Of a stretch of DNA of 64,000 bases, positions 15,213 to 58,198 are shown in pieces. The DNA is from a virus, in IMG/VR virus record IMGVR_UViG_3300021399_000007, positions 69,874-133,873 of that record; one strand, 5' to 3'. Numbering within the stretch: position 1 is the first letter of the stretch; each line of letters opens with the position of its first letter. Under the pieces are notes generated by a model, which was given only the letters and a program-made list of their open reading frames with translations, was not told the DNA's origin and made no database searches. A program made the translations under genes and the position numbers.

Positions 15213-15530
15213 ATGGCTGCAAAAGGAAGTATTTTGAAACAAGAGGTTATGGATAAAATCCTCGCCGCATTTCCTGGAAGTTTTCTTTATAATGATGGAA
15301 AAGAAATTCGTATTAATGGACTTGAAAATGGAGAAAAGCTACAAATCAAAGTAACATTTACTTGTGCTAAAGTTGCGGTTGAAGGTGGCGATGACACAGC
15401 ATTACCTGGAGAAAAGGCTGCGGCAACCGCAGATGTAGAGTCTGTAGGAACGAATGAAAAAATTCCTCAGGAGCCAACCGCAGAAGAAAAAGAGCGATTG
15501 ACCATGTTGTTAAATAAACTGGGACTGTAA
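15213..15530 (+). CDS. Hypothetical protein (105 aa)
   Basis: Track ORF. Confidence 0.5.
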   Translation: MAAKGSILKQEVMDKILAAFPGSFLYNDGKEIRINGLENGEKLQIKVTFTCAKVAVEGGDDTALPGEKAAATADVESVGTNEKIPQEPTAEEKERLTMLLNKLGL

Positions 15531-15540
15531 GGAGAATAAT

Positions 15541-15840
15541 ATGGGAGTAGGAGTGCATCTTTATCAAATGACTTGTTGGGAATCAGTTGGTCGTTGGCAT
15601 GTAAATGATGTAAAAAATCTTGGCGGCCGCTCCGCCAAATGGTATACTCCTATGCGTATTCTTGACCTTTCTATTGAAGAGTATATTGATCTTTTGTTAA
15701 ATACTTTTCATGCACAGGGAGTGTATTATTATGCTCCCACAGATTATTTAGCTTTTTATTTTACAAAAGAAAAAGATGCTAAAGCATTTTGTTCGTATGT
15801 TAATAAGATCGCGCGACACAACAACTATTGTTGTGCATAA
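15541..15840 (+). CDS. Hypothetical protein (99 aa)
   Basis: Track ORF, SD GGAGAATAATATG. Confidence 0.5.
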   Translation: MGVGVHLYQMTCWESVGRWHVNDVKNLGGRSAKWYTPMRILDLSIEEYIDLLLNTFHAQGVYYYAPTDYLAFYFTKEKDAKAFCSYVNKIARHNNYCCA

Positions 15841-15844
15841 GTAT

Positions 15845-16010
15845 ATACTTTGGAAGTTGAGTGGCGTGCCTCCCCAGTCATGAATGGAGTTGAGGACCGG
15901 AAGGTGCAATCAGAGTTGAGGCGCTCAATACACTCTGTTTAAAAATACCGAACAAAAGGCTAAAGTAGGGTCTATCAAACCAGGGCCTTATATAAATCTG
16001 TTAGGATAGA
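15845..16010 (+). ncRNA. Possible structured non-coding leader/ncRNA preceding tRNA-Ile (triple AGTTGAG motif)
   Basis: gaAGTTGAGtgg, ggAGTTGAGgacc, agAGTTGAGgcgc; no ORF; directly upstream of tRNA. Confidence 0.2.
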
Positions 16011-16015
16011 CATAA

Positions 16016-16086
16016 AGGGCATTAGCTCAGTGGGAGAGCGCGCGTCTTATAAACGCGTGAGGGTAGTTCAATTCTACCATGCCCTA
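16016..16086 (+). tRNA. tRNA-Ile (anticodon TAT)
   Basis: AGGGCAT/ATGCCCT acceptor, D-stem GCTC/GAGC, anticodon stem CGCGT/ACGCG, loop CTTATAA, T-arm GGTAG-TTCAATT-CTACC. Confidence 0.75.
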
Positions 16087-16114
16087 TTATCTGATTTAAA
16101 GAATTTCTTTTTGA

Positions 16115-16165
16115 TTTTTTTAAAAAAATATTATATAATATTTATATGATAAAGATAGAAAAAGA
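16115..16165 (+). promoter_or_regulatory. Middle-class promoter motif (upstream of sigma factor gene)
   Basis: tttttttaaaaaaatattaTATAATATTTATATGATAAAGatagaaaaag. Confidence 0.55.
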
Positions 16166-16178
16166 AAGGAAATTGCAT

Positions 16179-17093
16179 ATGACAGAGATTATGATTGATG
16201 CACTTGATCTTGATGAAGATATGGAATTTGATCAAGAGAATGAAACAATTATAGAACAGCCTGATGCGGTTGTTACAAGTTCTGTAAAAATGTATTTACG
16301 AGAAATTGGCAAGTATAATCTTCTGTCAAGAGAGGAAGAAATAGAACTGGCGGAAGCCGCCCTTAAAGGCGATAAGGACGCGAAAGAAGCTCTTGTTAAT
16401 CACAATTTACGTTTGGTAGTTTCTGTTGCTAAACACTATATGGGGCGGGGACTTACTCTTCTTGATCTGATTCAGGAAGGAAATGTAGGTTTGATTAAGG
16501 CAGTTGATAAGTATGATGTATCTAAGGGCTTTAAATTTTCTACGTATGCTACCTATTGGATTAAGCAGGCAATTTCTCGTGCAGTAATGGACCAGGCTCG
16601 AAATATTCGTATTCCTGTTCATATTATCGAAATGATGAGTAATATTAAAAAGACTGAACGTGAATTTCAGCAGAAAAATGGACGGGAGCCGAAAAAAGAA
16701 GAAGTCGCCGCAATATTAAACATTGATTTGAGTAAGATTAAAGAGATATATGCTTGGATGAAAGATACTACTTCTCTTGATATTGTAGTTGGTGACGATG
16801 AAGATGTTACTGTAGGATCTTTTATTGAAGATGAATCTGTACCAAATGAGTTTGTTACTGTTGAAGAAGACGATCGCAATGTTGCTATTCGTAATATTCT
16901 TGATACATTGAATGAACGTGAAAAAATAATTATTACACATCGTTTTGGAATTGGTTTAGATCGTGCGGAAACTCTTGATGAAATTGGCAAGAAATTAAAA
17001 CTTAGTCGAGAGAGAGTCCGCCAGATTGAAGAGGGCGCATTAAGAAAATTGCGAAATCCGCGCCGTGCAAATTTACTTAAAGAATTTTTCTAA
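16179..17093 (+). CDS. RNA polymerase sigma factor, sigma-70 family (regions 1.2-4, no region 1.1)
   Basis: [22 protein letters not shown] (1.2/2.1), [41 protein letters not shown] (2.2-2.4), [11 protein letters not shown] (3), [27 protein letters not shown] (4.2 HTH); ATG 16179 after AAAGGAAATTGCAT. Confidence 0.85.
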
Positions 17094-17159
17094 AGTTTGG
17101 ACATGATTATTTAAATGTATTTATGTATTTTTAAATACAAGTACAAACCTAAAAAGTTG

Positions 17160-17205
17160 ATTTTTAATAAAAATTTTGATATAATATATATATAAAATAA
17201 AGACA
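17160..17205 (+). promoter_or_regulatory. Middle-class promoter motif driving tRNA-Asn
   Basis: tttttaataaaaattttgaTATAATATATATATAAAATAAAGac. Confidence 0.5.
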
Positions 17206-17355
17206 GCATAACAGCAAAAGTGTAAATTCTTAAAAAAATAAACAAGTCTTTGGAATGTGCTATTTTGTAAAAAGAGCTAAAGTTTATAGTTGTTCTAATT
17301 TGGTAAGCTGCCCTGCCGTGGGAATAGTAGAAAAGGAACTTGCTGTCTTGCATTA

Positions 17356-17427
17356 GGGTGAGTAGCCTAATGGTTAGGCAGTTGCCTGTTAAGCAACCTT
17401 ACGCAGGTTCAATTCCTGCCTTACCCG
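17356..17427 (+). tRNA. tRNA-Asn (anticodon GTT)
   Basis: GGGTGAG/CTTACCC acceptor (one G-U), anticodon stem GTTGC/GCAAC loop CTGTTAA, T-arm GCAGG-TTCAATT-CCTGC. Confidence 0.75.
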
Positions 17428-17589
17428 TTAATTATGTTTAATAAAGACCGTATTTCAGCAAAATACCCTTTCTGAACATAGGAATATTGATAAGGATCGG
17501 CTAATAACTGACGGAGTAGATTTAGCAAGTGAGGGAATTTTGTAACTCCAAATATTAAACTAAAAACCTCATTACGGTCTTGCTTTAAT

Positions 17590-17640
17590 TGAAAATTTTA
17601 AAAAAATATATTATAATATATATAGAAAGTTAAAAAGGAG
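17590..17640 (+). promoter_or_regulatory. Middle-class promoter motif driving tRNA-Lys
   Basis: attttaaaaaaatatatTATAATATATATAGAAAGTTAAAAAGG. Confidence 0.5.
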
Positions 17641-17677
17641 TTAATTTTATGAAAAGTGATAAACCTCTTAAACATTA

Positions 17678-17750
17678 GCGCCATTAGCTCAGATGGAAGA
17701 GCACTTGACTTTTAATCAAGGAGTCTCGGGTTCGAGTCCCGAATGGCGCA
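17678..17750 (+). tRNA. tRNA-Lys (anticodon TTT)
   Basis: GCGCCAT/ATGGCGC acceptor, D GCTC/GAGC, anticodon stem CTTGA/TCAAG loop CTTTTAA, T-arm TCGGG-TTCGAGT-CCCGA. Confidence 0.8.
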
Positions 17751-17908
17751 TTTAGTGTGATCTATCCCTCGATACCACTGTCCAAAAAGTGTAAAGCGTA
17801 ATGGTAGGGAGTCGTCAAAACAGGGTTTTAATATTTTTCTGAGGGCAGAGACGAATTAAATCTAAACAGGCAGAGAAAAATATATCTTTTATAATAATTT
17901 AATAAAGG

Positions 17909-18097
17909 ATGGTGAAAATTATGATATATATTGTTCATTATTTTGATGATAAACATAAGCAGCACATGACCTTTGTTAAAACTTATAAAGATGTTGAATT
18001 TATAAAAGATCGTTTTGGAAGTATCACAGTCGAAACATTAAAAGTAAAAGAGTATCCATACATAGAATATAAAATGGCAATGGCGATTGAGCAATAG
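17909..18097 (+). CDS. Hypothetical small protein (62 aa)
   Basis: Track ORF between tRNA genes. Confidence 0.4.
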   Translation: MVKIMIYIVHYFDDKHKQHMTFVKTYKDVEFIKDRFGSITVETLKVKEYPYIEYKMAMAIEQ

Positions 18098-18370
18098 TGT
18101 ACATAAAACTCAAAGAGTCCACCACACTGCGGCGGTCGGTAGAGAGAGACCATAGCAGACTACCTTACGGAAGTCATGATCCGTGAATTTAGGCTATATA
18201 AACGTCTGGGGAGCCTACGAAATGGACAAAGCCATTTTTATATAAATTTGTTGAATCTTTCGGCTAAGTGAGTAATTTATTAAAAAATTAGCTAATATAG
18301 GAATTTTTGAAATAAATGAAAACTGTCAACAAGGTGGGACAGGCAGAGAAAGAACATATACCCACATTTT

Positions 18371-18442
18371 GGTCTTATGGTCTAAAGGTTATGATAATGG
18401 ACTGTCTATCCATGGATCTGGGTTCGATTCCCAGTAAGATCG
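18371..18442 (+). tRNA. tRNA-Asp-like (anticodon GTC) with atypical loop (T37) and weak D-stem
   Basis: GGTCTTA/TAAGATC acceptor, anticodon stem ATGGA/TCCAT loop CTGTCTA, T-arm CTGGG-TTCGATT-CCCAG. Confidence 0.5.
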
Positions 18443-18455
18443 TTTTATTTTTTAA

Positions 18456-18978
18456 GGGTTGTTATACCGTAGATAGTAGCGGGCCTGACTGATTCCAATA
18501 GGAGATTTGATATGAATGAAATTAACAGAAAGTAGTTGGGTAGATTAGGACTAAGTATGGCTATTAATTATTTTACAATTAATGGTTATACAATATCTAT
18601 TCCAATGAATGATACTCAGTGGTATGACTTGGTGATAGAGAAAGATAATAAGTTTTATACTGTCCAATGTAAAGCTACAGCAACTCAAGATAAAACAATA
18701 GATTTTAGATCTACTGGTGGAACTAAAGGAGTTGCTTATGATAATCTTCTTAATCATCCTGAGCTTGATTATTTATTTTGTGTTGATAATGAATTAAATA
18801 TGTGGAATATTCCTGTAAAAGATATAGTTCAAGTTGGAAATTCTAATCAAATTAGACTTCGATTAGAACCAAATAAAAATAATCAAGGATTTCAATCTTA
18901 TCAATATCGAGTTCAATTCTCGAATGGAGTATAAATCAGGTGTCTTAGACTCGGGTGGTGCGACTCCATCACAACCCA
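18456..18978 (+). tRNA. Split tRNA (Ile-like, anticodon GAT if canonical; long variable arm) interrupted between positions 36/37 by a ~440-nt ORF-bearing insert
   Basis: 5' part GGGTTGT..CCTGA-CTGAT (18456-18493); 3' part AA-TCAGG-[GTC-TTA-GAC variable hairpin]-GGTGG-TGCGACT-CCATC-ACAACCC-A (18934-18978); acceptor and anticodon stems complementary across the insert. Confidence 0.3.
18512..18934 (+). CDS. PD-(D/E)XK-type homing-endonuclease-like protein (I-Ssp6803I-like architecture), 1 in-frame TAG
   Basis: MNEINRK[TAG]LGRLGL...YDLVIEKDNKFYTVQCKAT (D...QxK); paralogous to ORFs at 19538 and 21293; track ORF 18536-18934 is the post-TAG part. Confidence 0.5.
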
Positions 18979-18983
18979 TTTTT

Positions 18984-19057
18984 CGCCCGATAGTGGAGTG
19001 GTTTAACACAGCGGTCTCTAAAACCGCGGATCCTGGGTTCGAATCCCAGTCGGGTGA
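18984..19057 (+). tRNA. Amber suppressor tRNA (anticodon CTA, reads UAG); short variable loop (not Leu/Ser/Tyr type)
   Basis: CGCCCGA/TCGGGTG acceptor (G2-U71), D-stem GTGG/ACAC with GG in loop, anticodon stem GCGGT/ACCGC, loop C-T-CTA-A-A (anticodon 19018-19020), T-arm CTGGG-TTCGAAT-CCCAG, discriminator A. Confidence 0.8.
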
Positions 19058-19063
19058 TATATC

Positions 19064-19136
19064 GCGGGGTAGAGCAGTTCGGTAGCTCGTCAGATTCATA
19101 TTCTGAAGGTCGTGGGTTCAAATCCCACCCGCCGCA
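19064..19136 (+). tRNA. tRNA-Met/Ile2-type (anticodon CAT)
   Basis: D-arm GAGC-AGTTCGGTA-GCTC, anticodon stem TCAGA/TCTGA loop TTCATAT, T-arm GTGGG-TTCAAAT-CCCAC; acceptor CGCGGGG vs CCGCCGC pairs imperfectly. Confidence 0.55.
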
Positions 19137-19474
19137 ATTCAAAGCACATATATCCGCGCAGATATATGTTTTGTGCTGAGAAGTTTGTTTTCTACTTTTG
19201 TTCTTAAAATCAAAGAGGGTGACTTTAGATATTCAATAAGAATATCTCCATGCTTCTGGTGACAGCGGTCGTCAATGAGTTCATGTCCTTAATGAGCGAT
19301 TCCCCTACGAGGCGCAAAAAAGTAGAGGGGTTACGAGTCTACTAGCTACTATACTCGTGAGTAGCAAATATGCGGGGGCCACGATACCGTGTGGTGTAAA
19401 ATCGGTAGCATACTGAATAATCAATTCAGAGATCTAAAGTAGCGTATTAGCACGGTGGGCGTGTAGCCGCATTT
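19137..19474 (+). ncRNA. Structured non-coding RNA region (several helices; segment TTCAGAGATCTAAAG resembles a group I P7/R element)
   Basis: CCCCTAC...GTAGAGGGG, GAGTCTACTAGCTACTATACTCGTGAGTAG pairings; no ORF. Confidence 0.25.
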
Positions 19475-20327
19475 GCCTCTATCCGCTAATGGTAGGCGAA
19501 GTGATTTGTTTGCTAACTTTATTAAAAGGTCATATAAGTGAATGAAACTAAACAAAAAGGTTTAATTACGGAAATTTAGTGTGAACTTGCTTTTTCTAAA
19601 TTAGGAATTTTACTTTCTAAACCTATAGTAGAAGATAGTCGATATGATTATTTAGCTGATATAAACGGAAAGTTTTTACGCATCCAATGTAAAACTTCTT
19701 CTATTTCAGAAGATAATAGTTATATAGAATTTGCTACAAGATCTTGTCGATCTAATACTAAAGAAAATTCCAGCAGGAATTATACTAAAGAAGAAATTGA
19801 TTATTTTTATACATGTTATAAAGATAAATCTTATTTAGTTCCCGTTGAAGAGTGTTCTACTACAAAAAAATTAAGATTTCTTCCTCCCAAAAATGGGCAA
19901 ATAGATAAAACTTCATTTGCTAAAGATTATGAATTAAAAAATATTTTATAGAAAAAAGAAAATTTTTTAAATTTTCAAATACATTAGGTAAATATTATAA
20001 ATTCTAGTAAAGAAAATATTTGTAAAGAATGTGGAAAACCCATTTCTAAAACAGCCATATTATGTAATAGTTGCAGAGGACTGAAAGACAGAACTGTAAA
20101 GCGTCCTTTAAGAGAAGAATTAAAAGAATTAATTCGAACTACTTCTTTTACATAGATCGGTAGAAAATATAATATAACTGATAATGCTATTAGAAAATGG
20201 TGTGATTATTATAATTTACCACGAACTAAAAAAGATATAAAAAACTATTCTGAAGAAGAATGGAAAGGAATTTAATAAAGCAAGGCAATCAAATCACTCA
20301 ATCCCCGTTCGAATCGGGGTGGAGGCT
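19475..20327 (+). tRNA. Split tRNA-Thr (anticodon TGT) interrupted between 36/37 by a 780-nt insert carrying a homing-endonuclease-like gene
   Basis: 5' part GCCTCTA-TC-CGCT-AATGGTA-GGCG-A-AGTGA-TTTGT (19475-19509); 3' part AA-TCACT-CAAT-CCCCG-TTCGAAT-CGGGG-TGGAGGC-T (20292-20327); acceptor pairs 7/7 with one G-U, anticodon stem AGTGA/TCACT. Confidence 0.4.
19538..20275 (+). CDS. Homing-endonuclease-like protein: N-terminal PD-(D/E)XK nuclease domain, CxxC..CxxC ribbon, C-terminal NUMOD-like HTH; 4 in-frame TAG codons
   Basis: GTG/ATG start 19538/19542; VNETKQKGLITEI[TAG]CELAF...YDYLADINGKFLRIQCK...PVEECSTTKKLRFLPPKNGQI...NIL[TAG]KKENFLNFQIH[TAG]VNIINSSKENICKECGKPISKTAILCNSC...SFT[TAG]IGRKYNITDNAIRKWCDYYNLP...; ends TAA 20273-20275. 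Confidence 0.5.
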
Positions 20328-20436
20328 TAAAATCACTTACAGCAAAAATTGTTCAGTAGTCAAAAGGTTAAGACATTAATTTTTAAGATTAAGTAATGCT
20401 GGTTCGATTCCAGCCTGAGTTGAGTGATTTGTTTTT

Positions 20437-20520
20437 GCGGGCGTGGCGGAATAGGCAGACGCACGGGACTTAAAATCCCGAGGACATGAGTCCGTGTGGG
20501 TTCAACTCCCACCGCCCGCA
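20437..20520 (+). tRNA. tRNA-Leu (anticodon TAA), type II
   Basis: GCGGGCG/CGCCCGC acceptor, anticodon stem CGGGA/TCCCG loop CTTAAAA, variable hairpin GGACATGAGTCC, T-arm GTGGG-TTCAACT-CCCAC. Confidence 0.8.
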
Positions 20521-20693
20521 TTAATAAATATATTTGGATAGTTTGGAATCTATCGTCGCACTTTATTATTGGTTGAGTATAAGTGCGACAAAACCCAACC
20601 AAAGGGCAAATATATTATATATAAAAGTTTTGCAAAACTTATTAGAATTGCCCAATAGCAAATTATTAATGGAAGATGGGCATTAATTACAAT

Positions 20694-20767
20694 TTGATAG
20701 GTAGCTCAATTGGTAGAGCGGCGGCGCGTTAAGCCGTGTGTTGGAGATTCGAGTTCTCCCCTATCAA
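20694..20767 (+). tRNA. tRNA-Asn-like (anticodon GTT) with non-canonical anticodon loop GCGTTAA (C at position 33)
   Basis: TGATAGG/CCTATCA acceptor, D GCTC-AATTGGTA-GAGC, anticodon stem GCGGC/GCCGT, T-arm GGAGA-TTCGAGT-TCTCC. Confidence 0.5.
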
Positions 20768-20773
20768 CTATAT

Positions 20774-20858
20774 GGTGTAGTACCTCAGTGGGGAGGAGGC
20801 GCGGTCCTGAAAACCGTCGCTCCGAGAGGGGCTGAAGGTTCGAATCCTTCCTGCACCG
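20774..20858 (+). tRNA. tRNA-Ser (anticodon TGA), type II, loop CCTGAAA
   Basis: GGTGTAG/CTGCACC acceptor, 3-bp D-stem, anticodon stem GCGGT/ACCGT, variable hairpin GCTCC-GAGA-GGGGC, T-arm GAAGG-TTCGAAT-CCTTC. Confidence 0.7.
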
Positions 20859-20862
20859 CTAT

Positions 20863-20951
20863 TGGATGGGTGGCAGAGTTGGTTGAATGCGGCACCCTGC
20901 TAAGGTGTTAGTCACTTCGGTGGCTCGCGAGTTCGAATCTCGCCTCATCCG
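20863..20951 (+). tRNA. tRNA-Ser (anticodon GCT), type II
   Basis: GGATGGG/CTCATCC acceptor, anticodon stem GCACC/GGTGT loop CTGCTAA, variable hairpin GTCAC-TTCG-GTGGC, T-arm GCGAG-TTCGAAT-CTCGC. Confidence 0.75.
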
Positions 20952-20957
20952 CTATAT

Positions 20958-21034
20958 GGCTCTGAGGGAAAACAGATTGATCTGCCTGCCTGTCACGCAG
21001 GAGATAGCGGGTTCGAGTCCCGCCAGAGTCGCCA
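20958..21034 (+). tRNA. tRNA-Asp (anticodon GTC), encoded CCA
   Basis: GGCTCTG/CAGAGTC acceptor, anticodon arm CCTGC-CTGTCAC-GCAGG identical to E. coli tRNA-Asp, T-arm GCGGG-TTCGAGT-CCCGC, G-CCA 3' end; D-arm divergent. Confidence 0.7.
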
Positions 21035-21228
21035 TTTGGGGTTGATTCTCACCCTACCACCGAGAATCCCGAAGTTGCTGGTTGGTGAATGTAACCGTTA
21101 TGCTGGTATTAGGGGTTAATAAATCCAGTTGTTCTATCAGGAGATCAAGAAACCTGATCATCATGGCATGGATAGCCTGAGGGTTGGACCCGACCCATCT
21201 TGTTGTAAAGATTGGTTATCAGGGCATA

Positions 21229-21780
21229 GGGGGTCATAGCTCAGTTGGGAGAGCGCATCCCTTGCTTGAAAAACTTATATTTTTAAAATATTATGGAAAC
21301 TAAACAACTTGGAAATTTAACTTAGTTACAATGTATTACTCGTTTTTATGAATTAGGATATTCAGTATCAATACCTTATGGAGATAGTGAAAAATATGAT
21401 ATGATACTTGATATTAATGGAAAATTATATAAACTTCAAGCAAAACATGCTAAAGAATTTTATACAGAAGATAATCAATTATCATATATAAAGATAAAAA
21501 CTTCTTGGCAATCTGGATATACTAAACAAAGTCAATATCATACAAATAAGTATTCTAAAAATGAAATTGATTTTTTTGTTACATACTTTCAAGGTAAAAA
21601 TTATTTAATTCCAGTAGAAGAATGCTCAACTGAAAAAATATTAAGAATTTTACCTCCAAAAAATGGACAAATAAAAGGAATATCTTTTTTAGAAAACTAT
21701 ATTGATGAGGAGGTTATTAAAAAATTATAAGTATTATCAGGTAAAGGATGAGGTCGAGAGTTCGATTCTCTCTGGCTCCA
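21229..21780 (+). tRNA. Split tRNA-Ala (anticodon TGC, G3-U70 present) interrupted between 36/37 by a ~478-nt insert carrying a homing-endonuclease-like gene; CCA encoded
   Basis: 5' part GGGGGTC-AT-AGCTC-AGTTGGGA-GAGC-G-CATCC-CTTGC (21229-21265); 3' part AA-GGATG-AGGTC-GAGAG-TTCGATT-CTCTC-TGGCTCC-A-CCA (21744-21783); anticodon stem CATCC/GGATG perfect. Confidence 0.5.
21293..21730 (+). CDS. PD-(D/E)XK-type homing-endonuclease-like protein, 1 in-frame TAG
   Basis: METKQLGNLT[TAG]LQCITRFYELGYSVSIPYGDSEKYDMILDINGKLYKLQAKHA...PVEECSTEKILRILPPKNGQI...; track ORF 21401-21730 is the post-TAG part. Confidence 0.5.
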
Positions 21781-21921
21781 CCATTGCGGCATCTGGAACT
21801 ATGTATTTAGTTTTAACCACGCCAAAAGCAAGAAGGATTGGATTCGCGAATACAGATGAGACTTCTTGTAAAGACCCTCTGGCTTGATAGTTACTTCGAG
21901 AAGTATAGGAACTATCAATAG

Positions 21922-21997
21922 ACTCGATTAACTCAGCTGGGAGAGTGCGACTCTTACAAAGTCGAAGTCGTTGGTTCGAGTCCAACATCGAGTACCA
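21922..21997 (+). tRNA. tRNA-Val (anticodon TAC), encoded CCA
   Basis: ACTCGAT/ATCGAGT acceptor, D ACTC-AGCTGGGA-GAGT, anticodon stem CGACT/AGTCG loop CTTACAA, T-arm GTTGG-TTCGAGT-CCAAC, A-CCA. Confidence 0.8.
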
Positions 21998-22120
21998 TCT
22001 GCGGGGCCGGCGTATAAATGGTCCTACCACCCGACTCGTAGTGAACACGGAACGCTGAAAGGTCTTGGGGAACTCCAGGGTAAGATACTCTGCAAGGGAG
22101 GTTGTGCTCCCTACTTTTAA

Positions 22121-22192
22121 CGGGGCGTAGCGTAGCGGCGACGCGCTAGTTTTGGGAACTAGATCAGGTGGGTTCAACTCCCGCCGCCCCGA
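22121..22192 (+). tRNA. tRNA-Pro (anticodon TGG)
   Basis: CGGGGCG/CGCCCCG acceptor, D GCGT/ACGC, anticodon arm CTAGT-TTTGGGA-ACTAG, T-arm GTGGG-TTCAACT-CCCGC. Confidence 0.75.
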
Positions 22193-22542
22193 TTGTCTTT
22201 CAAAACCTGACGTTTAGCTTATTATAAAAATAAGTTTCGTACTATTAATAACAGAGATAGGAATTAAATAAACGTAAACCCATTGTAGCCCCCGACACGG
22301 AAACAATAAGAATAGAAGTTATTTGAAATGATATATAATAGCTCTCGAAAAAAGTAGGTTAACAATACTGAAAATTTTCTTGGATACAGATAGGGAAATC
22401 GCAATGAAATGTCCAATAGTTGAAGGTCTATTGGAAGAACACTATAGTGTTTTAAAGTTTAGGTGTTCACGATATAACTTTTGGTAGGGTGATGTAATGG
22501 ATGGTTGGCCCCTAAATCTTTTAAAGCAAAGGAGTGTTTTTT

Positions 22543-23115
22543 ATGAAAAAAATAATATTATGTACTGCTTTTTCCTTATTTTTACTTAACACTGATGCGG
22601 TTGCCGCTACAAAAAAAGTCACCGCAAATTTAAATGTAAGAAAATAGCCAAATACAGAGTCTGAAATAGTTGGGTTATTACCAAAAGGGAAGATAATTAA
22701 AACTAAAAAGACTGAAAATTAGAATTGGGATAAAATTAAATATGAAGATGAAACTTGCTATGTTTGTAATACTTATTTAGAAAAAGTAAGTAAAGAATAG
22801 CTAGAAAAGATAGAAGAACTTTTATCCTTACGAGAAATTTCTTTAGAAGATTTTAGATATAGAGGTGTTATTAATTGGAGTGGATGGAATTGGACATATT
22901 ACTTAATGAGTCAATTCCCTGGATCAACTTCAACACCAGTAGAGGGAAGGTATGTTAATGATGAAGATTTTGTTTGTGATAGTTAGGGATATATAATTTT
23001 AGCTTCAGTTGACTTATCTCCCTACACAATAGTAGATACACCATTTGGTTATCAAGGTAAGGTATATGATACTGGATGCCCATATGGAACACTTGATGTT
23101 TACGTTAATTGGTAA
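22543..23115 (+). CDS. Secreted SH3b + 3D-domain protein (cell-wall binding / MltA-like), 4 in-frame TAG codons
   Basis: Signal peptide MKKIILCTAFSLFLLNTDAVAA; SH3b-like KVTANLNVRK[TAG]PNTESEIVGLLPKGKII; C-terminal 3D-like ...YQGKVYDTGCPYGTLDVYVNW; frame continuous to TAA 23113-23115. Confidence 0.45.
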
Positions 23116-23788: not shown

Positions 23789-25300
23789 ATGAATACTTTT
23801 CTTAATCAGATGAAGAAAGATAATAATATTGATTATACAGAGAATGGCGGCGTGACCCGCAAGTCTACGGAATCTAAGGTTCTTGATATGTTCGCAGTCG
23901 GTGGTGCATACAGAAACCGTTCTGATGAAGATGTTATTCTTCTCTTCAAAAACGCATTTGAAGAAGACCGCCTTCTGGCTATGAAATGCCTGTTTTATCT
24001 TCGCGATGTGCGCGGAGGACAGGGAGAAAGACGCTTCTTTAGAGTTGCCTTTCGCTGGCTTTGTGACGAATATCCTGAAGTTGCAAAGAAGAACCTTGAC
24101 AATGTTAGTGAGTATGGTCGCTGGGATGATTTGATTTATGTTACGGAAGGTACTAGATGTCAAACCGCCGCATTTAATATCATCAAGCATCAGCTTGCTC
24201 TTGATACTCAGTGCAAAACACCATCCTTGCTTGCAAAGTGGCTTCCTTCTCAGAATGCTTCCAATGCGGAGACCAAGAGATTGGGACATGTTTTGGCAAA
24301 TTTCTTAGGGATGACCAGCCGCGAATATCGTAAGACCCTTTCTGTTCTTCGTGAACGCATTAATGTGCTTGAGCGTCTTATGAGCACTGGTAGATGGGAT
24401 GAAATCGAATTTGATAAAATTCCTTCTAGAGCAGGTATTATTTATCGTAATGCCTTTGCTCGCCGCGATATTCTTGCCAAAAAGTATGAAGCTTTTGCCA
24501 AGAGTAAAGATACTAAGGTAAATGCAGATGCACTGTATCCGCACGATATTGCTCACAGAGCTTTTGAGATGCGTTATCATACTAACCTTGAAGATCCCAC
24601 TCGTCTTATGCTTCAGAAGTATTGGGATAATCTCAAAGACTTCTATAACGGCAGAGAAGAGAATGGTATTGCAGTCGTTGATGTGTCTGGCTCCATGTCT
24701 GGAACTCCAATGGAAGCTGCAGTTTCTATGGGGGCTTACATCGCAGATAAAGCACATGGGCCTTTTGCGAATCACTTTATTACTTTTTCTTCCTCTCCTG
24801 AATTGGTAAGGTTTGAAGGAGTTGATATTGTTGATAAGTTTCGTCGTTGTGTTGGGGCAAACTGGAGTATGAATACCAACTTGCAGGCGGTATTTGATAT
24901 GCTTCTGCATACTGCAATGAGAAAGAATGTAAAGGCTGAAGATATGCCGACTCGAATTTACATTTTTTCTGATATGGAGTTTGATCAGTGTGTGTCTTTT
25001 GATTGTACCCCTAAGCTTCACAGATGGGAAGGTTACCGTACTGTCAACTCTGTTGATGAGGTAAATTCCGATCTTGAGAAGATTAAAAAGGAATGGGCAC
25101 GGTATGGATACAAAATGCCTCAGGTCATCTTTTGGAATCTCGATGCCCGTCAGAATCATATTCCAGCTATTGGAGAAGGGTTCAGTTACGTGAGTGGTTT
25201 TTCGCCTTCTATGATTGACTGCATCTTGAGCGGCAAGGATGGCTGGGATTTGATGCTTGAAAAGCTCATGTCCAAACGTTATGCGGCAGTTGTTGCATAA
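23789..25300 (+). CDS. vWA-domain protein of the DUF2828/Ro60-like type (503 aa)
   Basis: MIDAS motif VVDVSGSMSG, N-terminal TROVE-like helical region (LLAMKCLFYLRDVRGGQGERRFFR); higher GC than surroundings. Confidence 0.55.
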   Translation: MNTFLNQMKKDNNIDYTENGGVTRKSTESKVLDMFAVGGAYRNRSDEDVILLFKNAFEEDRLLAMKCLFYLRDVRGGQGERRFFRVAFRWLCDEYPEVAKKNLDNVSEYGRWDDLIYVTEGTRCQTAAFNIIKHQLALDTQCKTPSLLAKWLPSQNASNAETKRLGHVLANFLGMTSREYRKTLSVLRERINVLERLMSTGRWDEIEFDKIPSRAGIIYRNAFARRDILAKKYEAFAKSKDTKVNADALYPHDIAHRAFEMRYHTNLEDPTRLMLQKYWDNLKDFYNGREENGIAVVDVSGSMSGTPMEAAVSMGAYIADKAHGPFANHFITFSSSPELVRFEGVDIVDKFRRCVGANWSMNTNLQAVFDMLLHTAMRKNVKAEDMPTRIYIFSDMEFDQCVSFDCTPKLHRWEGYRTVNSVDEVNSDLEKIKKEWARYGYKMPQVIFWNLDARQNHIPAIGEGFSYVSGFSPSMIDCILSGKDGWDLMLEKLMSKRYAAVVA

Positions 25301-29982: not shown

Positions 29983-30029
29983 CAAAAAAAAATGGCGATG
30001 ATATAAAAATATCATCGCCATTTTTTTTA
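29983..30029. terminator. Bidirectional rho-independent terminator between convergent late operons
   Basis: A9-AATGGCGATGATAT-aaaaat-ATATCATCGCCATT-T8. Confidence 0.65.
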
Positions 30030-32057
30030 TGGTTTTAATCGGATAATATATCCAACTTTATAGTTCGGCCACGAGAGTGGACCAATCCATTTTACGAAAT
30101 GAGCACCTTCGCCCTTTTCTTTGCAGAAGGCATGTCCAGAATCAAATGACAAACCATTACCAAAGTAAATACATGTATGATTGATAGCTACAAAAGTAAG
30201 AATGTCACCAGGACAAAGTTTTCCTTCGTTCATAAGCTGCTTAGGAGTCTTATTGCCTACTTTGATTAAGTCTGCATACTTGCGGAGATCAGCCTACGCG
30301 TGACTATTTAACCAGCGGATGCCGCCTCCTTTTTGTCCATACCAGCTGCATGCAGATGCAGGAAGCCCAGACTATTTCATTGCAAAGCCAACACCGCCCA
30401 TACAGTTTGTATATAACTTATTAGCTTTTCTTGTTTTCCAGAATGTACTTTCACTTACATGTCCGCTGTTGTAATATCTCCAGTCTTTACCAGCTTTTAT
30501 GTCATCTACTAACCATTGATTTAACCGAGCACATGCCGCAAGTAATTTTTGCACTCTATTTAATTTTGGTTTATATACAACTGTTTTTGGATTTTTTAAG
30601 TCATAAACTCTAAATCCCCAATTTTGATTAGCCTTATTTTTAGCGTTACTTAAGTATTGATAAGCACCAAGTTGGTATTGAGATTCAGACCATCTTCTAC
30701 GAACGACATATCTATCTACTATTGTTGCGGCGGGAGTCGTTGTTACGGGCGCTTGGACTGGTGCCGCCGTAACCGCCTTCACCTATGGATAAATTTGATT
30801 ACCATTCTAATCATATACTTTTAATCCTTTAGCTTTTGCTCTTGCTATTGCATTAGCTTTAATTTCGTAAGCATTATCTTGGTTAATATATTTTCCATTT
30901 TTATAGTCTTGTGCAACTCTATACCAGACAGTTTTTGGCTGTGGGACTGGTGCCGTCGCCCCCGCTTCTACATCTAATTTTGCTAAATTATTTTCTTTAA
31001 TAATACGAAGCACCTTCTCTTCATAATTAGGATCAGTGCAATACCCCTATGGATTACTAGCTGTTCCAGTTCCAATTCTAATTGCATGAATAACCGCTCC
31101 AGGATCTGTCATACCTTTAATGCGATTATATTTATAACCTTTATTATTTTTTACATGCAAAAGGAACATCTAATAATCTTCAATGCAGTTTTTATAGTCC
31201 TTATAAACTCTAAAGTTATCATTTTTATAAATTAATTTACCATTAACATATTCAGGAGTCATTTTAGAAAAACTTGTACCATTCCAAACTGTATAATTAG
31301 ACCAACTACTATTGATTAAATCAACTTTCATTCCAAGAAGATTATTTCGTTTTGTTAATTCAATAGCATCAGATCCTAATCCATAACCATTCTAGAGGCA
31401 GCACTGTGCGGCGACCACTGATGGTAAAATTTTTGTTTGTTTATAAAGATCTACACAGATCTTAGATACTTTATTAATAAAGTCTTCTTTGCTTTGAGGG
31501 ATACCAGAAGCTGCGGTTGTTGACGGTGTTGTACCTGCATTTCCGCCCTTCACCCTCTCAAGAAATTCATTCCAAGTCCAAGATGTTTTATATTTATTAT
31601 TATGAACATATGGAGCTGGGCAGACTTTATTTACAATATCATAATGTCTTAATACATGGTCTATTGGGATTTTTAAGTCCTTCATTAATTTTTGAACAAG
31701 CCATACCGCAGCTTCTTGTGTCTCTTTTGTAAAATACCAATATGGGTCACTTGCTAATCCTTTGTTGCCATCACAGTGACAACATAATTCAATGCTAATT
31801 GTATTAGCATTTCTTGCGTATGGATGCTTTTGAGCATATATACCAGCTGTACCGACTGCCCACACAATTGCATCATGGGAACATCTTTGGAAAATCGTTC
31901 CATCCCAATAAATTGTATAGTGGGCACCAGTACCATTTTTTGATAATTCATAATTTTGACCATCTACTCCTAAATAGTGAATGGCTATATATTCATGTGT
32001 ATTTCCAAATTTTGGCACATATACTTCTGAAATTTTATTTACTATTTTATATGCCAT
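30027..32057 (-). CDS. Multidomain endolysin (676 aa): N-acetylmuramoyl-L-alanine amidase (Amidase_2) + glucosaminidase + cell-wall-binding repeats + NlpC/P60; 7 in-frame TAG codons
   Basis: Four track fragments (31392-32057, 30807-31013, 30372-30782, 30027-30233) share one frame, separated only by TAG; motifs AIHY..ISIELCCH..HYDIVNKVCPAP; NGYGLGSDAIELTKRNNLLG; repeats YRVAQDYKNGKYINQDNAYEIKANAIARAKAKG / YVVRRRWSESQYQLGAYQYLSNAKNKA; NlpC/P60 TNCMGGVGF...HTCIYFGNG; SD GGAGAAAAAAT-ATG. Confidence 0.65.
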
Positions 32058-41825: not shown

Positions 41826-42317
41826 ATGAAAATATTATCTATTGATGCTTCTACTAAATCATCTGGTTGGTGCATAGGATAGGATGGAAGATTTGAAAAA
41901 TCTGGATGCGTTGCAGCGGCCTCTAAAAATGTAAATGCACGAATTATTAAAATTCGTGATGAAATATCTAAAATAATTAAAGAAAATAATATAGATAAAA
42001 TTGTTATGTAGTAGGTGCGGCCTGAGTACAATTCTCATACTAATAAAGTATTAATGTGGTTACAGGCTGCGATTGTTCTCGCCGCTTATGAAATTAATCC
42101 AAAAATTTAGTGTGAATTTATTGGAGCTACAGAATGGCGGGCCGCATTAAAAATAAAACAGGGACGCGGCATAAAGAGAGAAATGCTCAAACCGCAAGAT
42201 ATAAAATACGTAGAAGATAAATACTCAATTAAAGTCCAAAATGATGACTAGGCTGATGCAATTTGCATATTTGATGCCTATTGGGAAAAAAATGATAATA
42301 AAATTAATTGGGAATAA
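41826..42317 (+). CDS. RuvC-like Holliday junction resolvase (163 aa), 5 in-frame TAG codons
   Basis: MKILSIDASTKSSGWCIG (RuvC motif I), ...ADAICIFDAYW (C-terminal D-A-x-A motif); TAGs at codons 19, 62, 63, 95, 142. Confidence 0.5.
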
Positions 42318-57100: not shown

Positions 57101-57471
57101 AATTGAACATTTGTATTTAAAATTTGTGTAGCAACGTTATTAAACGCCGCCTGTCCAGCCGCTCCAACCTGAGAAAAAGCCTGTTGGACTTGACTAATAG
57201 AGCTGCCGGAATTTTTTAAAGTCTTATTAAATTGTTCAATATTAAGAGTATTTAATTTCGTATTGAAGGCTTTCTTTAATGCATTTTCTACATTCGTCGC
57301 CTATGTTTTTACTTGTCTTAATGTTTCTGTTGCTGAGGCGGCGTCTGTATTATTAATCTTCATTACATCACTGATTTTTAATTTCTGTATCTATTGCAAT
57401 GAAGATTTTAATTGGTTCAACCCTTCTTTTTGAATGTCAAAACCAACTTGATATTTAATCTGATTCGCCAT
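48115..57471 (-). CDS. Tail tape-measure protein, apparent single ORF of ~3118 aa with ~90 in-frame TAG codons
   Basis: Eleven track fragments from 48115-48714 up to 56440-56625 share one frame; adjacent fragments separated by TAG where checked (e.g. 56440-56442); SD TTAAGGAGATAAAAGGAT-ATG at 57471; TM-like GIPVLMTFGSTLANIFN; Gly-rich block. Confidence 0.5.
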
Positions 57472-58150: not shown

Positions 58151-58198
58151 AAAAGGAAAAAGTATTAAAACATTTAAAATAATATAGGGGGAATGTTT

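What the first reader, a model, noticed from the sequence alone, without database searches (positions are those of the whole stretch)
18512..20275. The homing-endonuclease-like genes themselves contain in-frame TAG codons at conserved N-terminal positions
- Each of the three paralogs has a TAG 8-14 codons after the start: MNEINRK[TAG]L, VNETKQKGLITEI[TAG]C, METKQLGNLT[TAG]L.
- The 19538-20275 gene has three more (…NIL[TAG]KKE…, …QIH[TAG]VNI…, …SFT[TAG]IGRKY…).
- These mobile-type genes are therefore adapted to the recoded host-phage system and cannot be recent imports from a standard-code genome.
- Their expression is also suppressor-dependent.
Basis: seen in the sequence. Interest (0 to 1): 0.6.

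Follow-up and report, generated by a model that had tools for sequence, protein, structure and literature searches.

The report
Amber-recoded nuclease genes inside phage tRNAs
Three mobile nuclease genes that carry in-frame TAG codons each sit inside the anticodon loop of a phage tRNA gene, in a phage that reads TAG as an amino acid, and that amino acid looks like glutamate rather than the glutamine reported for other phages.

Summary
There are six in-frame TAGs: HE1 18512-18934 has one, HE2 19538-20275 has four, and HE3 21293-21730 has one. They lie in three different alignment columns, not a conserved one.

All three proteins are I-Ssp6803I-type PD-(D/E)XK homing endonucleases (Pfam PF11645). 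The Pfam match starts upstream of each first TAG. HE2 has no alternative start codon. The TAGs are therefore read through, by a phage tRNA(CUA) at 18984-19057.

Two unexpected results:
1. **Each gene fills an insertion in a tRNA anticodon loop.** The hosts are tRNA-Tyr (34|35), tRNA-Thr (36|37) and tRNA-Ala (36|37). Only about 20-45 nt of each insertion is non-coding. There is no 3'-terminal G and no group I or II match. The two ends of each insertion pair with each other. At least 44 of 80 viral loci, and the cultured Enterococcus phage EFP01, show the same layout. How the tRNAs are restored is unknown.
2. **TAG here most likely means Glu, not Gln.**
   - Relatives carry GAA/GAG at the window's TAG columns in several late genes.
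   - One TAG aligns with the Glu of the GH73 motif (A-L/V-E-S-x-W-G) that I equate with the invariant catalytic Glu.
   - HE3's TAG occupies a ≥90% conserved Glu column.
   - Several TAG columns in HE1 and HE2 are Gln-type instead, so the evidence within the endonucleases themselves is mixed.

The parts
18456..18491 (+). tRNA-Tyr(GTA) exon 1, positions 1-34
   Evidence: Joining it to 18932-18978 gives a type II tRNA that ARAGORN calls Tyr(GTA). Intronless phage tRNA-Tyr genes match both halves across the CTG|TAAA junction.
18492..18931 (+). 440-nt insertion (intron-like) in tRNA-Tyr between positions 34 and 35
   Evidence: The junction is fixed by intronless homologs. Only 20 nt precede the ORF and none follow it. 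The last base is A and the exon base before the insertion is G. No Rfam group I or II match at E<=10.
18512..18934 (+). HE1, a PD-(D/E)XK homing endonuclease gene of 140 codons. TAG at 18533-18535. Its TAA stop (18932-18934) is tRNA positions 35-37.
   Evidence: PF11645 E=1.4e-15, residues 5-126. AGGAG lies 8 nt upstream of the ATG. Orthologs of 66-83% identity sit in the same tRNA-Tyr position.
18932..18978 (+). tRNA-Tyr(GTA) exon 2, positions 35-73
   Evidence: The T loop is TGCGACT (G at position 55) and the D loop lacks GG. The related L199 has a TGCAACT T loop that shares G55.
18984..19057 (+). Suppressor tRNA with anticodon CUA, which reads TAG
   Evidence: ARAGORN. Rfam tRNA 64.7 bits. 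Structure. Isotype not resolved by similarity.
19475..19509 (+). tRNA-Thr(TGT) exon 1, positions 1-36
   Evidence: ARAGORN with introns allowed finds the split tRNA. Intronless alleles L015 and L016 match across TTTGT|AATCACT.
19510..20291 (+). 782-nt insertion in tRNA-Thr between positions 36 and 37
   Evidence: 28 nt precede the ORF and 16 nt follow it. The last base is A. No Rfam match. The ends pair with each other. The L002 ortholog keeps this helix, with changes on both strands and one bulged base (my reading of the sequences).
19538..20275 (+). HE2, 245 codons: PD-(D/E)XK domain plus CxxC...CxxC zinc ribbon plus a C-terminal conserved block that looks like a helix-turn-helix. TAGs at 19577, 19949, 19985 and 20153.
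   Evidence: PF11645 E=1.1e-23. PDB 2OST, which I recognise as I-Ssp6803I, E=5e-4. 376 homologs, many full length. No start codon for at least 93 codons after TAG1.
20292..20327 (+). tRNA-Thr(TGT) exon 2, positions 37-73
21230..21265 (+). tRNA-Ala(TGC) exon 1, positions 1-36, with the G3:U70 pair
   Evidence: An intronless allele identical to the joined exons is found in L207 and L208.
21266..21743 (+). 478-nt insertion in tRNA-Ala between positions 36 and 37
   Evidence: 27 nt precede the ORF and 13 nt follow it. The exon base before it is C and the last base is A. The terminal helix is kept through base changes in the L001 ortholog.
21293..21730 (+). HE3, 145 codons. Its TAG at 21323-21325 sits in the >=90% conserved Glu column of the family.
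   Evidence: PF11645 E=3.7e-23, residues 1-136. The 69%-identical ortholog in L001 has GAA at this codon. In the 26-sequence alignment, 24 of 24 non-TAG sequences have E in this column (column 14).
21744..21783 (+). tRNA-Ala(TGC) exon 2, positions 37-73 plus CCA
30027..32057 (-). Endolysin (Amidase_2 + GH73 glucosaminidase) with 7 TAGs. Used here as the reference for what TAG encodes.
   Evidence: Pfam. The TAG at residue 222 aligns with the Glu of the GH73 motif in 7QFU and 3FI7. I place that Glu at Auto E122 by residue counting. GH73 enzymes have an invariant general-acid Glu (PMC4752226).
27958..29982 (+). Tail protein gene with 16 TAGs. Used for codon-level comparison with relatives.

Best explanation
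The three genes are I-Ssp6803I-family PD-(D/E)XK homing endonuclease genes. Each one almost completely fills an insertion in the anticodon loop of a phage tRNA gene: tRNA-Tyr at 34|35, tRNA-Thr at 36|37 and tRNA-Ala at 36|37.

The phage is amber-recoded. TAG is a sense codon concentrated in tail and lysis genes. It is decoded by a phage tRNA(CUA) whose gene lies in the same array, 5 nt downstream of the tRNA-Tyr that hosts HE1.

The six TAGs in the endonuclease genes are therefore translated. Making the nucleases requires the suppressor tRNA, which should restrict production to the phase of infection when the code switch is active (inferred).

The amino acid inserted is most likely glutamate, not glutamine (shown by comparative evidence, not by proteomics).

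The insertions behave as mobile, homing-type elements, because alleles with and without them share an identical junction (shown).

They are not group I or group II introns (shown by four criteria). Restoring the tRNAs would need a cut-and-ligate step by proteins, acting on the internal loop between the anticodon stem and the conserved helix formed by the two insertion ends (inferred, untested).
For: **The TAGs are sense codons**
- ORF statistics favour TAG read-through.
- TAG counts per gene run from 0 in the genes on the window's flanks (untimed; presumably early) to 84 in the 3118-aa ORF.
- A tRNA(CUA) gene is present.

**Family assignment and N-termini**
- PF11645 is matched from profile position 1-2; PDB 2OST also matches.
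- D37, Q50 and K52 are invariant across 45 sequences.

**The genes lie inside tRNA genes**
- ARAGORN finds the split tRNAs.
- Intronless alleles fix the junctions.
- At least 44 of 80 viral loci show the same layout, as does the cultured phage EFP01.

**The insertions are not group I**
- No covariance-model match.
- They end in A and are preceded by G, T or C.
- The non-coding remainder has a median of 35 nt on the 5' side and 14 nt on the 3' side.
- No block of extra synonymous-site conservation lies inside the ORFs.

**The two ends pair**
- Duplex energy averages -9.4 kcal/mol against -4.3 for mismatched partners, with 0 of 5000 permutations as low.
- Anticodon-stem and acceptor/T-stem sequences co-vary among insertion-bearing alleles.

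**TAG most likely encodes Glu**
- Tail gene against close relatives: Glu codons in 54 of 75 cells, Gln in 2.
- Several genes: 28 of 60 and 16 of 25 Glu, against 3 and 1 Gln. Likelihood favours E over Q by 13-48 nats.
- Tape-measure domain against four TAG-free relatives: 13 of 20 Glu, 1 of 20 Gln.
- Tail gene against TAG-free relatives of 37-51% identity: 34 of 76 Glu, 4 of 76 Gln.
- A TAG aligns with the GH73 motif Glu that I identify as the catalytic residue.
- HE3's TAG lies in the conserved Glu column.
Against: **Against Glu**
- HE1's TAG and HE2's first and fourth TAGs fall in columns where the family mostly has genuine CAA/CAG Gln.
- An HE1 ortholog (L202) has TAG at two columns where the aligned orthologs have Gln; one is the invariant Q50.
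- Within the endonucleases alone, Gln fits HE2 better.
- The tRNA(CUA) could not be assigned to an isotype by similarity.
- No peptide evidence exists.

**Against splicing**
- No transcript data.
- No RNA ligase or splicing endonuclease was found in the 64-kb window.
- The tRNA-Tyr has an odd T loop and D loop.
- One ortholog (L200) is frameshifted.
- The tRNA-Ala insertion looks recent, because the exons are identical to an intronless allele. Intact halves there do not prove function.
Confidence: 0.72

Rival explanations
1. The TAGs are true stops. Translation starts downstream of the first TAG and the later TAGs in HE2 give truncated but functional nucleases.
For: HE1 has a TTG directly after its TAG, and HE3 has an ATG 36 codons in.
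Against: The pre-TAG residues match the family profile from position 1-2 and match PDB 2OST (I-Ssp6803I). HE2 has no start codon for at least 93 codons after TAG1. The part of HE2 after TAG2 is a conserved zinc-ribbon and helix-turn-helix-like domain present in hundreds of full-length homologs. The whole window is TAG-recoded.
Confidence: 0.03
2. TAG is read as glutamine, as in the published amber-recoded phages (code 15). The Glu signal comes from many Glu-to-Gln replacements.
For: HE2's TAG columns favour Gln. HE1's TAG aligns with Gln in its paralogs and in L201. Published phage cases are all Gln.
Against: CAA/CAG appears in only about 3-5% of cells at TAG columns of the late genes, against 45-72% GAA/GAG. 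A synonymous CAG-to-TAG route would predict the opposite. TAG also aligns with the Glu of the GH73 motif that I identify as the catalytic residue, and with the >=90% conserved Glu of the endonuclease family in HE3, L111 and L006.
Confidence: 0.15
3. The insertions are never removed. The endonuclease genes have simply destroyed dispensable phage tRNA genes, and the halves still look intact because homing keeps creating fresh insertions.
For: The tRNA-Ala exons are identical to an intronless allele. The tRNA-Tyr has an atypical T loop and D loop. No ribozyme and no splicing enzyme were found.
Against: Insertion-bearing tRNA-Tyr alleles in four or five phages keep a paired anticodon stem through complete sequence replacement: CCTGA/TCAGG, GCGCA/TGCGT, GCAGA/TCTGC, GCTGA/TCAGC. 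W2 and L002 tRNA-Thr differ by five compensatory pairs and no disruptive change, while their endonucleases and the corresponding tail proteins (P0129, apparently on the same 24,017-nt contig) are each about 70% identical. The insertion ends pair in 48 distinct cases. Tyr, Thr and Ala have no intact copy in this array.
Confidence: 0.25
4. They are self-splicing group I introns, as in the Synechocystis tRNA-fMet intron that encodes I-Ssp6803I. The ribozyme overlaps the ORF or is too divergent for Rfam.
For: The endonuclease family and the anticodon-loop location are the same as in known group I cases (PMC13011429). That paper also notes that RF00028 misses some tRNA introns.
Against: All three insertions end in A, not G. 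The preceding exon base is G or C in two of the three. Only about 20-45 nt is non-coding, whereas the group I tRNA introns in that paper are at least 184 nt even without an ORF. No stretch of suppressed synonymous change lies inside the ORFs. No match at E<=10.
Confidence: 0.05

Closest known systems
I-Ssp6803I, the PD-(D/E)XK homing endonuclease (PF11645, PDB 2OST) encoded in the group I intron of cyanobacterial tRNA-fMet
   Same: The protein family is the same, as are the invariant D...QxK residues. The insertion is also in a tRNA anticodon loop, and alleles with and without it coexist.
   Different: There is no group I ribozyme. The insertions lie at 34|35 and 36|37 rather than the 33/34 reported for tRNA-fMet. 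The host is a phage tRNA array. HE2 carries an extra zinc-ribbon and helix-turn-helix-like domain. The genes contain recoded TAGs.
Code 15 amber-recoded phages (crAss-like, Lak, phAss-1 and others)
   Same: TAG is a sense codon concentrated in structural and lysis genes, and the phage encodes its own tRNA(CUA).
   Different: The amino acid indicated here is Glu rather than Gln. Borges et al. state they saw only TAG to Gln and TGA to Trp. Suppressor isotype predictions in PMC10879173 list Gln, Trp, Ile and Tyr, but not Glu.
Intron-encoded homing endonuclease with in-frame TGA in TGA-recoded Agate phages (Borges et al. preprint 10.1101/2021.08.26.457843)
   Same: A homing endonuclease gene carries recoded stop codons, which the authors propose delays its production until late infection.
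   Different: That case involves TGA to Trp, a group I intron, and a protein-coding host gene.
'Enigmatic' tRNA introns of Lak megaphages (Devoto et al. 2019, PMC6784885)
   Same: These are introns in phage tRNA-Tyr(GTA) and tRNA-Thr(TGT) of an amber-recoded phage, with intron presence varying between genomes; the authors tested the intron sequences against Rfam and still call them enigmatic.
   Different: No endonuclease ORF is reported for the Lak introns. Whether they are the same kind of element was not tested here.
Archaeal bulge-helix-bulge introns that carry homing endonuclease genes (for example in rRNA and tRNA genes)
   Same: The intron consists of an ORF plus paired termini next to the splice sites, with no ribozyme.
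   Different: I could not draw a canonical 3-4-3 bulge-helix-bulge by hand for any of the three. Bacteria are not known to have the EndA splicing endonuclease.
Eukaryotic nuclear codes 30 and 31 (Peritrich, Blastocrithidia), in which TAA/TAG encode Glu
   Same: A stop codon is reassigned to glutamate (my own knowledge of the NCBI code tables).
   Different: Those are eukaryotic nuclear genomes and involve TAA as well. Here only TAG is affected, in a virus of bacteria.

Membership tests
PF11645 / I-Ssp6803I PD-(D/E)XK homing endonucleases | Sequence match above the curated Pfam threshold | tested here: met
   57.9, 84.2 and 82.5 bits against a cut-off of 26.1. PDB 2OST E=5e-4.
PF11645 / I-Ssp6803I PD-(D/E)XK homing endonucleases | Active-site residues (Asp of 'YD', then Q-x-K) | tested here: met
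   D37, Q50 and K52 are invariant in 45 sequences. They are present in HE1 (YD...VQCK), HE2 (YD...IQCK) and HE3 (YD...LQAK).
PF11645 / I-Ssp6803I PD-(D/E)XK homing endonucleases | Cleaves the insertion-free allele of its host gene | not testable with these tools
   A candidate target exists: the intronless tRNA-Ala in L207 and L208, identical to the joined exons.
Mobile (homing) insertion | Presence/absence polymorphism at an identical site in homologous genes | tested here: met
   Intronless tRNA-Thr, tRNA-Ala and tRNA-Tyr alleles match across the junctions.
Group I intron | Match to a group I covariance model | tested here: not met
   No RF00028 match at E<=10 in 15500-23000, nor at E<=1 in five related loci. 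Caveat: RF00028 is known to miss some tRNA introns.
Group I intron | 3'-terminal G and a U before the 5' splice site | tested here: not met
   With junctions fixed by intronless alleles, all three insertions end in A. The preceding exon bases are G (Tyr), T (Thr) and C (Ala).
Group I intron | About 180-250 nt of ribozyme core | tested here: not met
   Non-coding remainders are 20+0, 28+16 and 27+13 nt. Medians over the ARAGORN intron set are 35 and 14 nt. No synonymous-site constraint lies inside the ORFs.
Archaeal-type bulge-helix-bulge intron | Two 3-nt bulges separated by a 4-bp helix, with the splice sites in the bulges | tested here: inconclusive
   Folding mini-constructs gives an anticodon stem, an internal loop and a terminal helix, but no canonical 3-4-3 motif (plus inspection by hand). 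No dedicated search tool was available.
Genetic code 15 (TAG = Gln) | TAG is a sense codon | tested here: met
Genetic code 15 (TAG = Gln) | TAG columns are occupied by Gln in homologs | tested here: not met
   In late genes Glu fills 45-72% of cells and Gln 3-5%. A TAG aligns with the GH73 motif Glu that I identify as catalytic. Some endonuclease columns are Gln-type, so that part is mixed.

The most novel reading that the evidence does not exclude
This phage lineage, probably infecting Bacillota, reads UAG as glutamate, a code variant not reported for viruses. Its tRNA genes carry ribozyme-free insertions that consist only of a homing endonuclease gene. These insertions are removed from the pre-tRNA by protein enzymes, which would be a cut-and-ligate tRNA splicing pathway operating in bacteria. 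Endonuclease genes may also move between phages that read TAG as Gln and phages that read it as Glu, which would explain their mixed TAG columns.
Probability: 0.3. Interest if true: 0.85.

Novelty: new variant of a known kind. Interest (0 to 1): 0.66.

Why it matters
**The finding as stated is modest.** In-frame recoded stops in a homing endonuclease gene of a recoded phage have a published precedent.

**Code assignment.** If TAG is Glu here, every protein of this abundant clade that databases translate with code 15 carries wrong residues, some of them catalytic. The database proteins I retrieved showed Gln at TAG codons. The idea that phages can only co-opt GlnRS or TrpRS for stop-codon takeover would also need revising.

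**tRNA insertions.** Insertions that contain only an endonuclease gene are widespread: at least 44 of 80 viral loci examined, plus a cultured Enterococcus phage. Standard tRNA finders miss them, so phage tRNA repertoires are undercounted. They also raise an open and testable question, namely how a bacterial cell removes a 440-780 nt insert from an anticodon loop without a ribozyme. Phage EFP01 offers a culturable system for answering it.

Tried and rejected
- **Rfam searches.** Gathering and E<=10 thresholds on the window, and E<=1 on five related loci, gave only tRNAs and ROOL RNA. No group I, group II, HDV-like, hammerhead or twister match fell in or next to the insertions.
- **Annotated phage DNA search.** No close relative was found.
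- **Isotype of tRNA(CUA).** Similarity to about 1100 phage tRNAs, with and without masking the anticodon arm, gave no clear nearest isotype.
- **Database homologs for scoring TAG columns.** The top hits are close recoded relatives already translated with Gln at TAG, so that comparison is circular. I switched to codon-level DNA comparison.
- **Joined tRNA-Thr in metagenome contigs.** An exact search found nothing.
- **Conserved spacer 19137-19474 as a structured RNA.** Folding gave no thermodynamic signal, z=0.28. A broader spacer comparison script timed out.
- **RuvC-like protein against PDB.** No hit, so its TAG-TAG pair could be placed near the catalytic Glu only roughly.
- **RNA ligase, RtcB or EndA in the window.** None was found among the ORFs scanned. 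The window is only part of the genome.
Full report
**1. The observation**

- HE1 (18512-18934, 140 codons) has TAG at codon 8.
- HE2 (19538-20275, 245 codons) has TAG at codons 14, 138, 150 and 206.
- HE3 (21293-21730, 145 codons, outside the stated interval) has TAG at codon 11.

No TAA or TGA interrupts these frames. All three products match Pfam PF11645 (PD-(D/E)XK endonuclease) well above threshold, and each match begins upstream of the first TAG. HE2 also matches PDB 2OST from residue 3. I recognise 2OST as I-Ssp6803I from my own knowledge; the entry is titled 'putative endonuclease'.

The claim of 'conserved N-terminal positions' fails. In the paralog alignment the three N-terminal TAGs lie in three different columns.

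**2. The TAGs are sense codons**

Allowing TAG inside ORFs raises the longest ORF in the window from 837 to 3121 aa, and the DNA in ORFs of at least 300 aa from 10 to 31 kb. TAG is absent from the genes on the window's flanks, which I take to be early genes although no expression timing was measured. It is frequent in tail, tape-measure and lysis genes, with 84 TAGs in the 3118-aa ORF. A tRNA with anticodon CUA lies at 18984-19057, between HE1 and HE2.

- The residues before each TAG belong to the conserved domain.
- HE2 has no ATG, GTG or TTG for at least 93 codons after its first TAG.
- HE2's region after its second TAG is a zinc ribbon plus a helix-turn-helix-like block that is conserved in hundreds of full-length homologs.

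**3. What the genes sit in**

Each ORF lies between the two halves of a tRNA gene. ARAGORN with introns allowed finds two of the split tRNAs. The third is recognised once its halves are joined. Intronless alleles in public viral and metagenome contigs fix the junctions:

| Host tRNA | Junction | Exons in the window | Evidence |
|---|---|---|---|
| tRNA-Tyr(GTA) | CTG\|TAAA, positions 34\|35 | 18456-18491 / 18932-18978 | |
| tRNA-Thr(TGT) | TTTGT\|AATCACT, positions 36\|37 | 19475-19509 / 20292-20327 | |
| tRNA-Ala(TGC, G3:U70) | CTTGC\|AAGGATG, positions 36\|37 | 21230-21265 / 21744-21783 | |

For tRNA-Ala, two metagenome contigs with a syntenic tRNA array carry an uninterrupted gene identical to the window's two exons joined. 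In tRNA-Tyr the TAA stop codon of HE1 is itself tRNA positions 35-37. Orthologs in three or four other phages share this arrangement.

**4. The layout is widespread**

Of 80 viral contigs fetched with the endonuclease family alignment, at least 44 have the gene inside an ARAGORN intron-containing tRNA, across many tRNA types. The cultured Enterococcus phage EFP01 (Herelleviridae) has one in tRNA-Asn(GTT); its gp109 is annotated only as hypothetical. Salmonella phage PM10 has a free-standing copy between tRNA genes.

**5. What kind of insertion it is**

The insertions are not group I introns. I-Ssp6803I itself is encoded in a group I intron, and bacterial tRNA group I introns with PF11645 genes are known (PMC13011429), so this was the obvious expectation. 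Four tests go against it:
- No group I or II covariance-model match at E<=10 in the window, or at E<=1 in five related loci. The cited paper warns that RF00028 misses some tRNA introns.
- All three insertions end in A, not G. The exon base before the insertion is G, T or C.
- Only 20+0, 28+16 and 27+13 nt are non-coding. Across ARAGORN's 72 distinct intron calls the medians are 35 and 14 nt. Group I tRNA introns without an ORF are at least 184 nt.
- Synonymous-site identity along the ORFs is flat at about 0.7, with no long constrained block.

What is conserved instead is pairing between the two ends of the insertion. The duplex energy of the first and last 22 nt averages -9.4 kcal/mol, against -4.3 for mismatched partners, and 0 of 5000 permutations reached that value (48 distinct insertions). 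The helix is kept through sequence replacement. In W1 it is ATTCCA/TGGAGT and in L199 it is TCTGG/CCAGG, at the cost of changing the last residues of the protein from NGV to NQE. Folded mini-constructs show the anticodon stem, an internal loop holding both junctions, and then this helix. I could not draw a canonical bulge-helix-bulge.

**6. Are the tRNAs still used?**

For continued use:
- Insertion-bearing tRNA-Tyr alleles in different phages have anticodon stems CCTGA/TCAGG, GCGCA/TGCGT, GCAGA/TCTGC and GCTGA/TCAGC. All are paired.
- The window's tRNA-Thr and its L002 ortholog differ by five compensatory pairs and no disruptive change.
- Their endonucleases and the tail proteins of the two phages are each about 70% identical, which suggests long co-residence. 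This assumes the tail homolog P0129 sits on the L003 contig, inferred from the matching contig length of 24,017 nt.
- Tyr, Thr and Ala have no intact copy in this array.

Against continued use:
- The tRNA-Ala insertion looks recent.
- The tRNA-Tyr has G55 and no GG in its D loop; G55 recurs in L199.
- No ligase or splicing nuclease was found in the window. A Thg1-like enzyme and a metallophosphatase are present.

I consider removal by proteins the more likely reading, at roughly 0.4-0.5, with non-removal at about 0.25. Neither is shown.

**7. Which amino acid is TAG?**

Database homologs turned out to be unsafe for this. The gene regions of the database homologs I fetched did not translate under table 11, and the P0002 gene in L002 carries four in-frame TAGs where the database protein shows Gln. 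I therefore compared codons in DNA.

| Comparison | Glu codons at TAG columns | Gln codons |
|---|---|---|
| Tail gene (16 TAGs) vs three relatives of 67-76% identity | 54 of 75 | 2 of 75 |
| Several genes vs two 20-kb relatives, window TAGs | 28 of 60 | 3 of 60 |
| Same comparison, relatives' TAGs | 16 of 25 | 1 of 25 |
| Tape-measure domain vs four TAG-free relatives | 13 of 20 | 1 of 20 |
| Tail gene vs TAG-free relatives of 37-51% identity | 34 of 76 | 4 of 76 |

A substitution-matrix likelihood prefers Glu over Gln by 13-48 nats.

Functional sites agree:
- Residue 222 of the endolysin lies inside its GH73 glucosaminidase domain. It is a TAG that aligns with the Glu of 'AQAIVESGWG' in 7QFU and 'AQAALESNWG' in 3FI7.
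- Counting along the 3FI7 chain puts that Glu at residue 122 if the construct starts near residue 61. E122 is the general-acid residue of Auto, and GH73 enzymes have an invariant general-acid Glu (PMC4752226). This residue identification is my own inference.
- A RuvC-like gene has TAG-TAG at about the position of the catalytic Glu. This placement is approximate.

Within the endonucleases the picture is mixed:
- HE3's TAG falls in the column that is Glu in at least 90% of the family. Its 69%-identical ortholog has GAA there. L111 and L006 also have TAG there.
- HE1's TAG and HE2's first and fourth TAGs lie in columns with genuine Gln codons in many members.
- L202 has TAG at two columns where the aligned orthologs all have Gln; one of them is the invariant Q50.

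Gln-to-Glu is a conservative change, and it is reached by a single C-to-T change (CAG to TAG). These sites could therefore be tolerated replacements. Alternatively they could be relics of residence in a phage that reads TAG as Gln. I could not decide between these.

The tRNA(CUA) has C1-G72, A73 and a 3-bp D stem with an enlarged D loop. From my memory of the literature on GluRS and GatCAB identity elements, this is compatible with a Glu-charged tRNA that is not amidated in hosts lacking GlnRS. Similarity searches did not settle its isotype. Relatives of the phage are binned with Bacilli, Clostridia and Erysipelotrichaceae genomes, which is weak evidence for such a host.

**8. Comparison with what is known**

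- Recoded stops in an intron-encoded homing endonuclease gene, with the suggested effect of delaying its production, were described for TGA-recoded Agate phages. The finding as stated is therefore a known kind.
- Introns in tRNA genes of amber-recoded phages were noted as 'enigmatic' in Lak phages, including tRNA-Tyr(GTA) and tRNA-Thr(TGT), and counted in jumbo phages. Neither report gives a mechanism or mentions an endonuclease.
- The literature I could search reports only TAG to Gln and TGA to Trp for phages whose code differs from the host. I found no report of TAG to Glu in a phage. My searches were limited to the held library.

**9. Verdict**

First, the endonuclease genes are ribozyme-free insertions in tRNA anticodon loops. 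Second, this phage's amber codon most likely encodes glutamate. Both rest on comparative evidence only and need the experiments listed under next steps.

Noticed in passing
window 20349-20423 (+): A second stop-reading tRNA with anticodon UUA. Rfam scores it 51 bits as a tRNA, it has a weak acceptor stem, and its D arm looks Glu/Gln-like (my reading). TAA is nonetheless the main stop codon in the window.
   Followed up: partly
window 19137-19474 (+): The spacer between tRNA-Met and tRNA-Thr exon 1 contains a block of about 200 nt that is 79-81% identical to the same spacer in L002 and L003. No Rfam match, and no thermodynamic folding signal (z=0.28).
   Followed up: partly
window 60819-63308 (+), 23789-25297 (+), 59940-60764 (+), 58193-58948 (+): An 830-aa protein with a major-vault-protein shoulder domain (PF11978, 8.6e-23). 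Also a DUF2828/DUF7788 protein, a Thg1-like tRNA-His guanylyltransferase, and a metallophosphatase. The last two could be RNA end-repair functions.
   Followed up: no
L004 1886-2522, L006 5825-6414, L007 3430-4016 (Enterococcus phage EFP01): ROOL RNA (RF03087, 265-309 bits) lies within the tRNA arrays of relatives that also carry endonuclease insertions in tRNAs. None was found in the window.
   Followed up: no
L002 2912-3866, L003 1761-2716: tRNA-Trp(CCA) is interrupted by an insertion of about 866 nt encoding a LAGLIDADG_2 protein. It also has no Rfam group I match, so a second endonuclease family may use the same ribozyme-free layout.
   Followed up: no
window-wide, e.g. 60819-63311 versus 48115-57471: Gln codon choice flips between gene classes. 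Several TAG-free genes use almost only CAG (2 CAA, 25 CAG). TAG-rich late genes prefer CAA (147 CAA, 33 CAG).
   Followed up: no
window 41826-42317 (+): A RuvC-like resolvase gene (PF02075) has five TAGs, including a TAG-TAG pair in 'IVM**VRP' at about the position of the RuvC catalytic Glu.
   Followed up: partly
L211 1001-3058 (contig in a MAG labelled Clostridia): The tail-gene homolog has 7 in-frame TAA/TGA codons and no TAG. It may be a relative with a different stop-codon reassignment, or a degraded copy.
   Followed up: no
L200 383-815 (IMGVR_UViG_3300031760_004865): This HE1 ortholog is frameshifted near its 3' end, while its tRNA-Tyr halves and the terminal TAA overlap are kept. It is either a decaying endonuclease in a retained insertion or an assembly error.
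   Followed up: no
window 16146-17093 (+): A full-length sigma-70 family factor (regions 1.2, 2, 3 and 4) is encoded immediately upstream of the tRNA array and contains no TAG.
   Followed up: no
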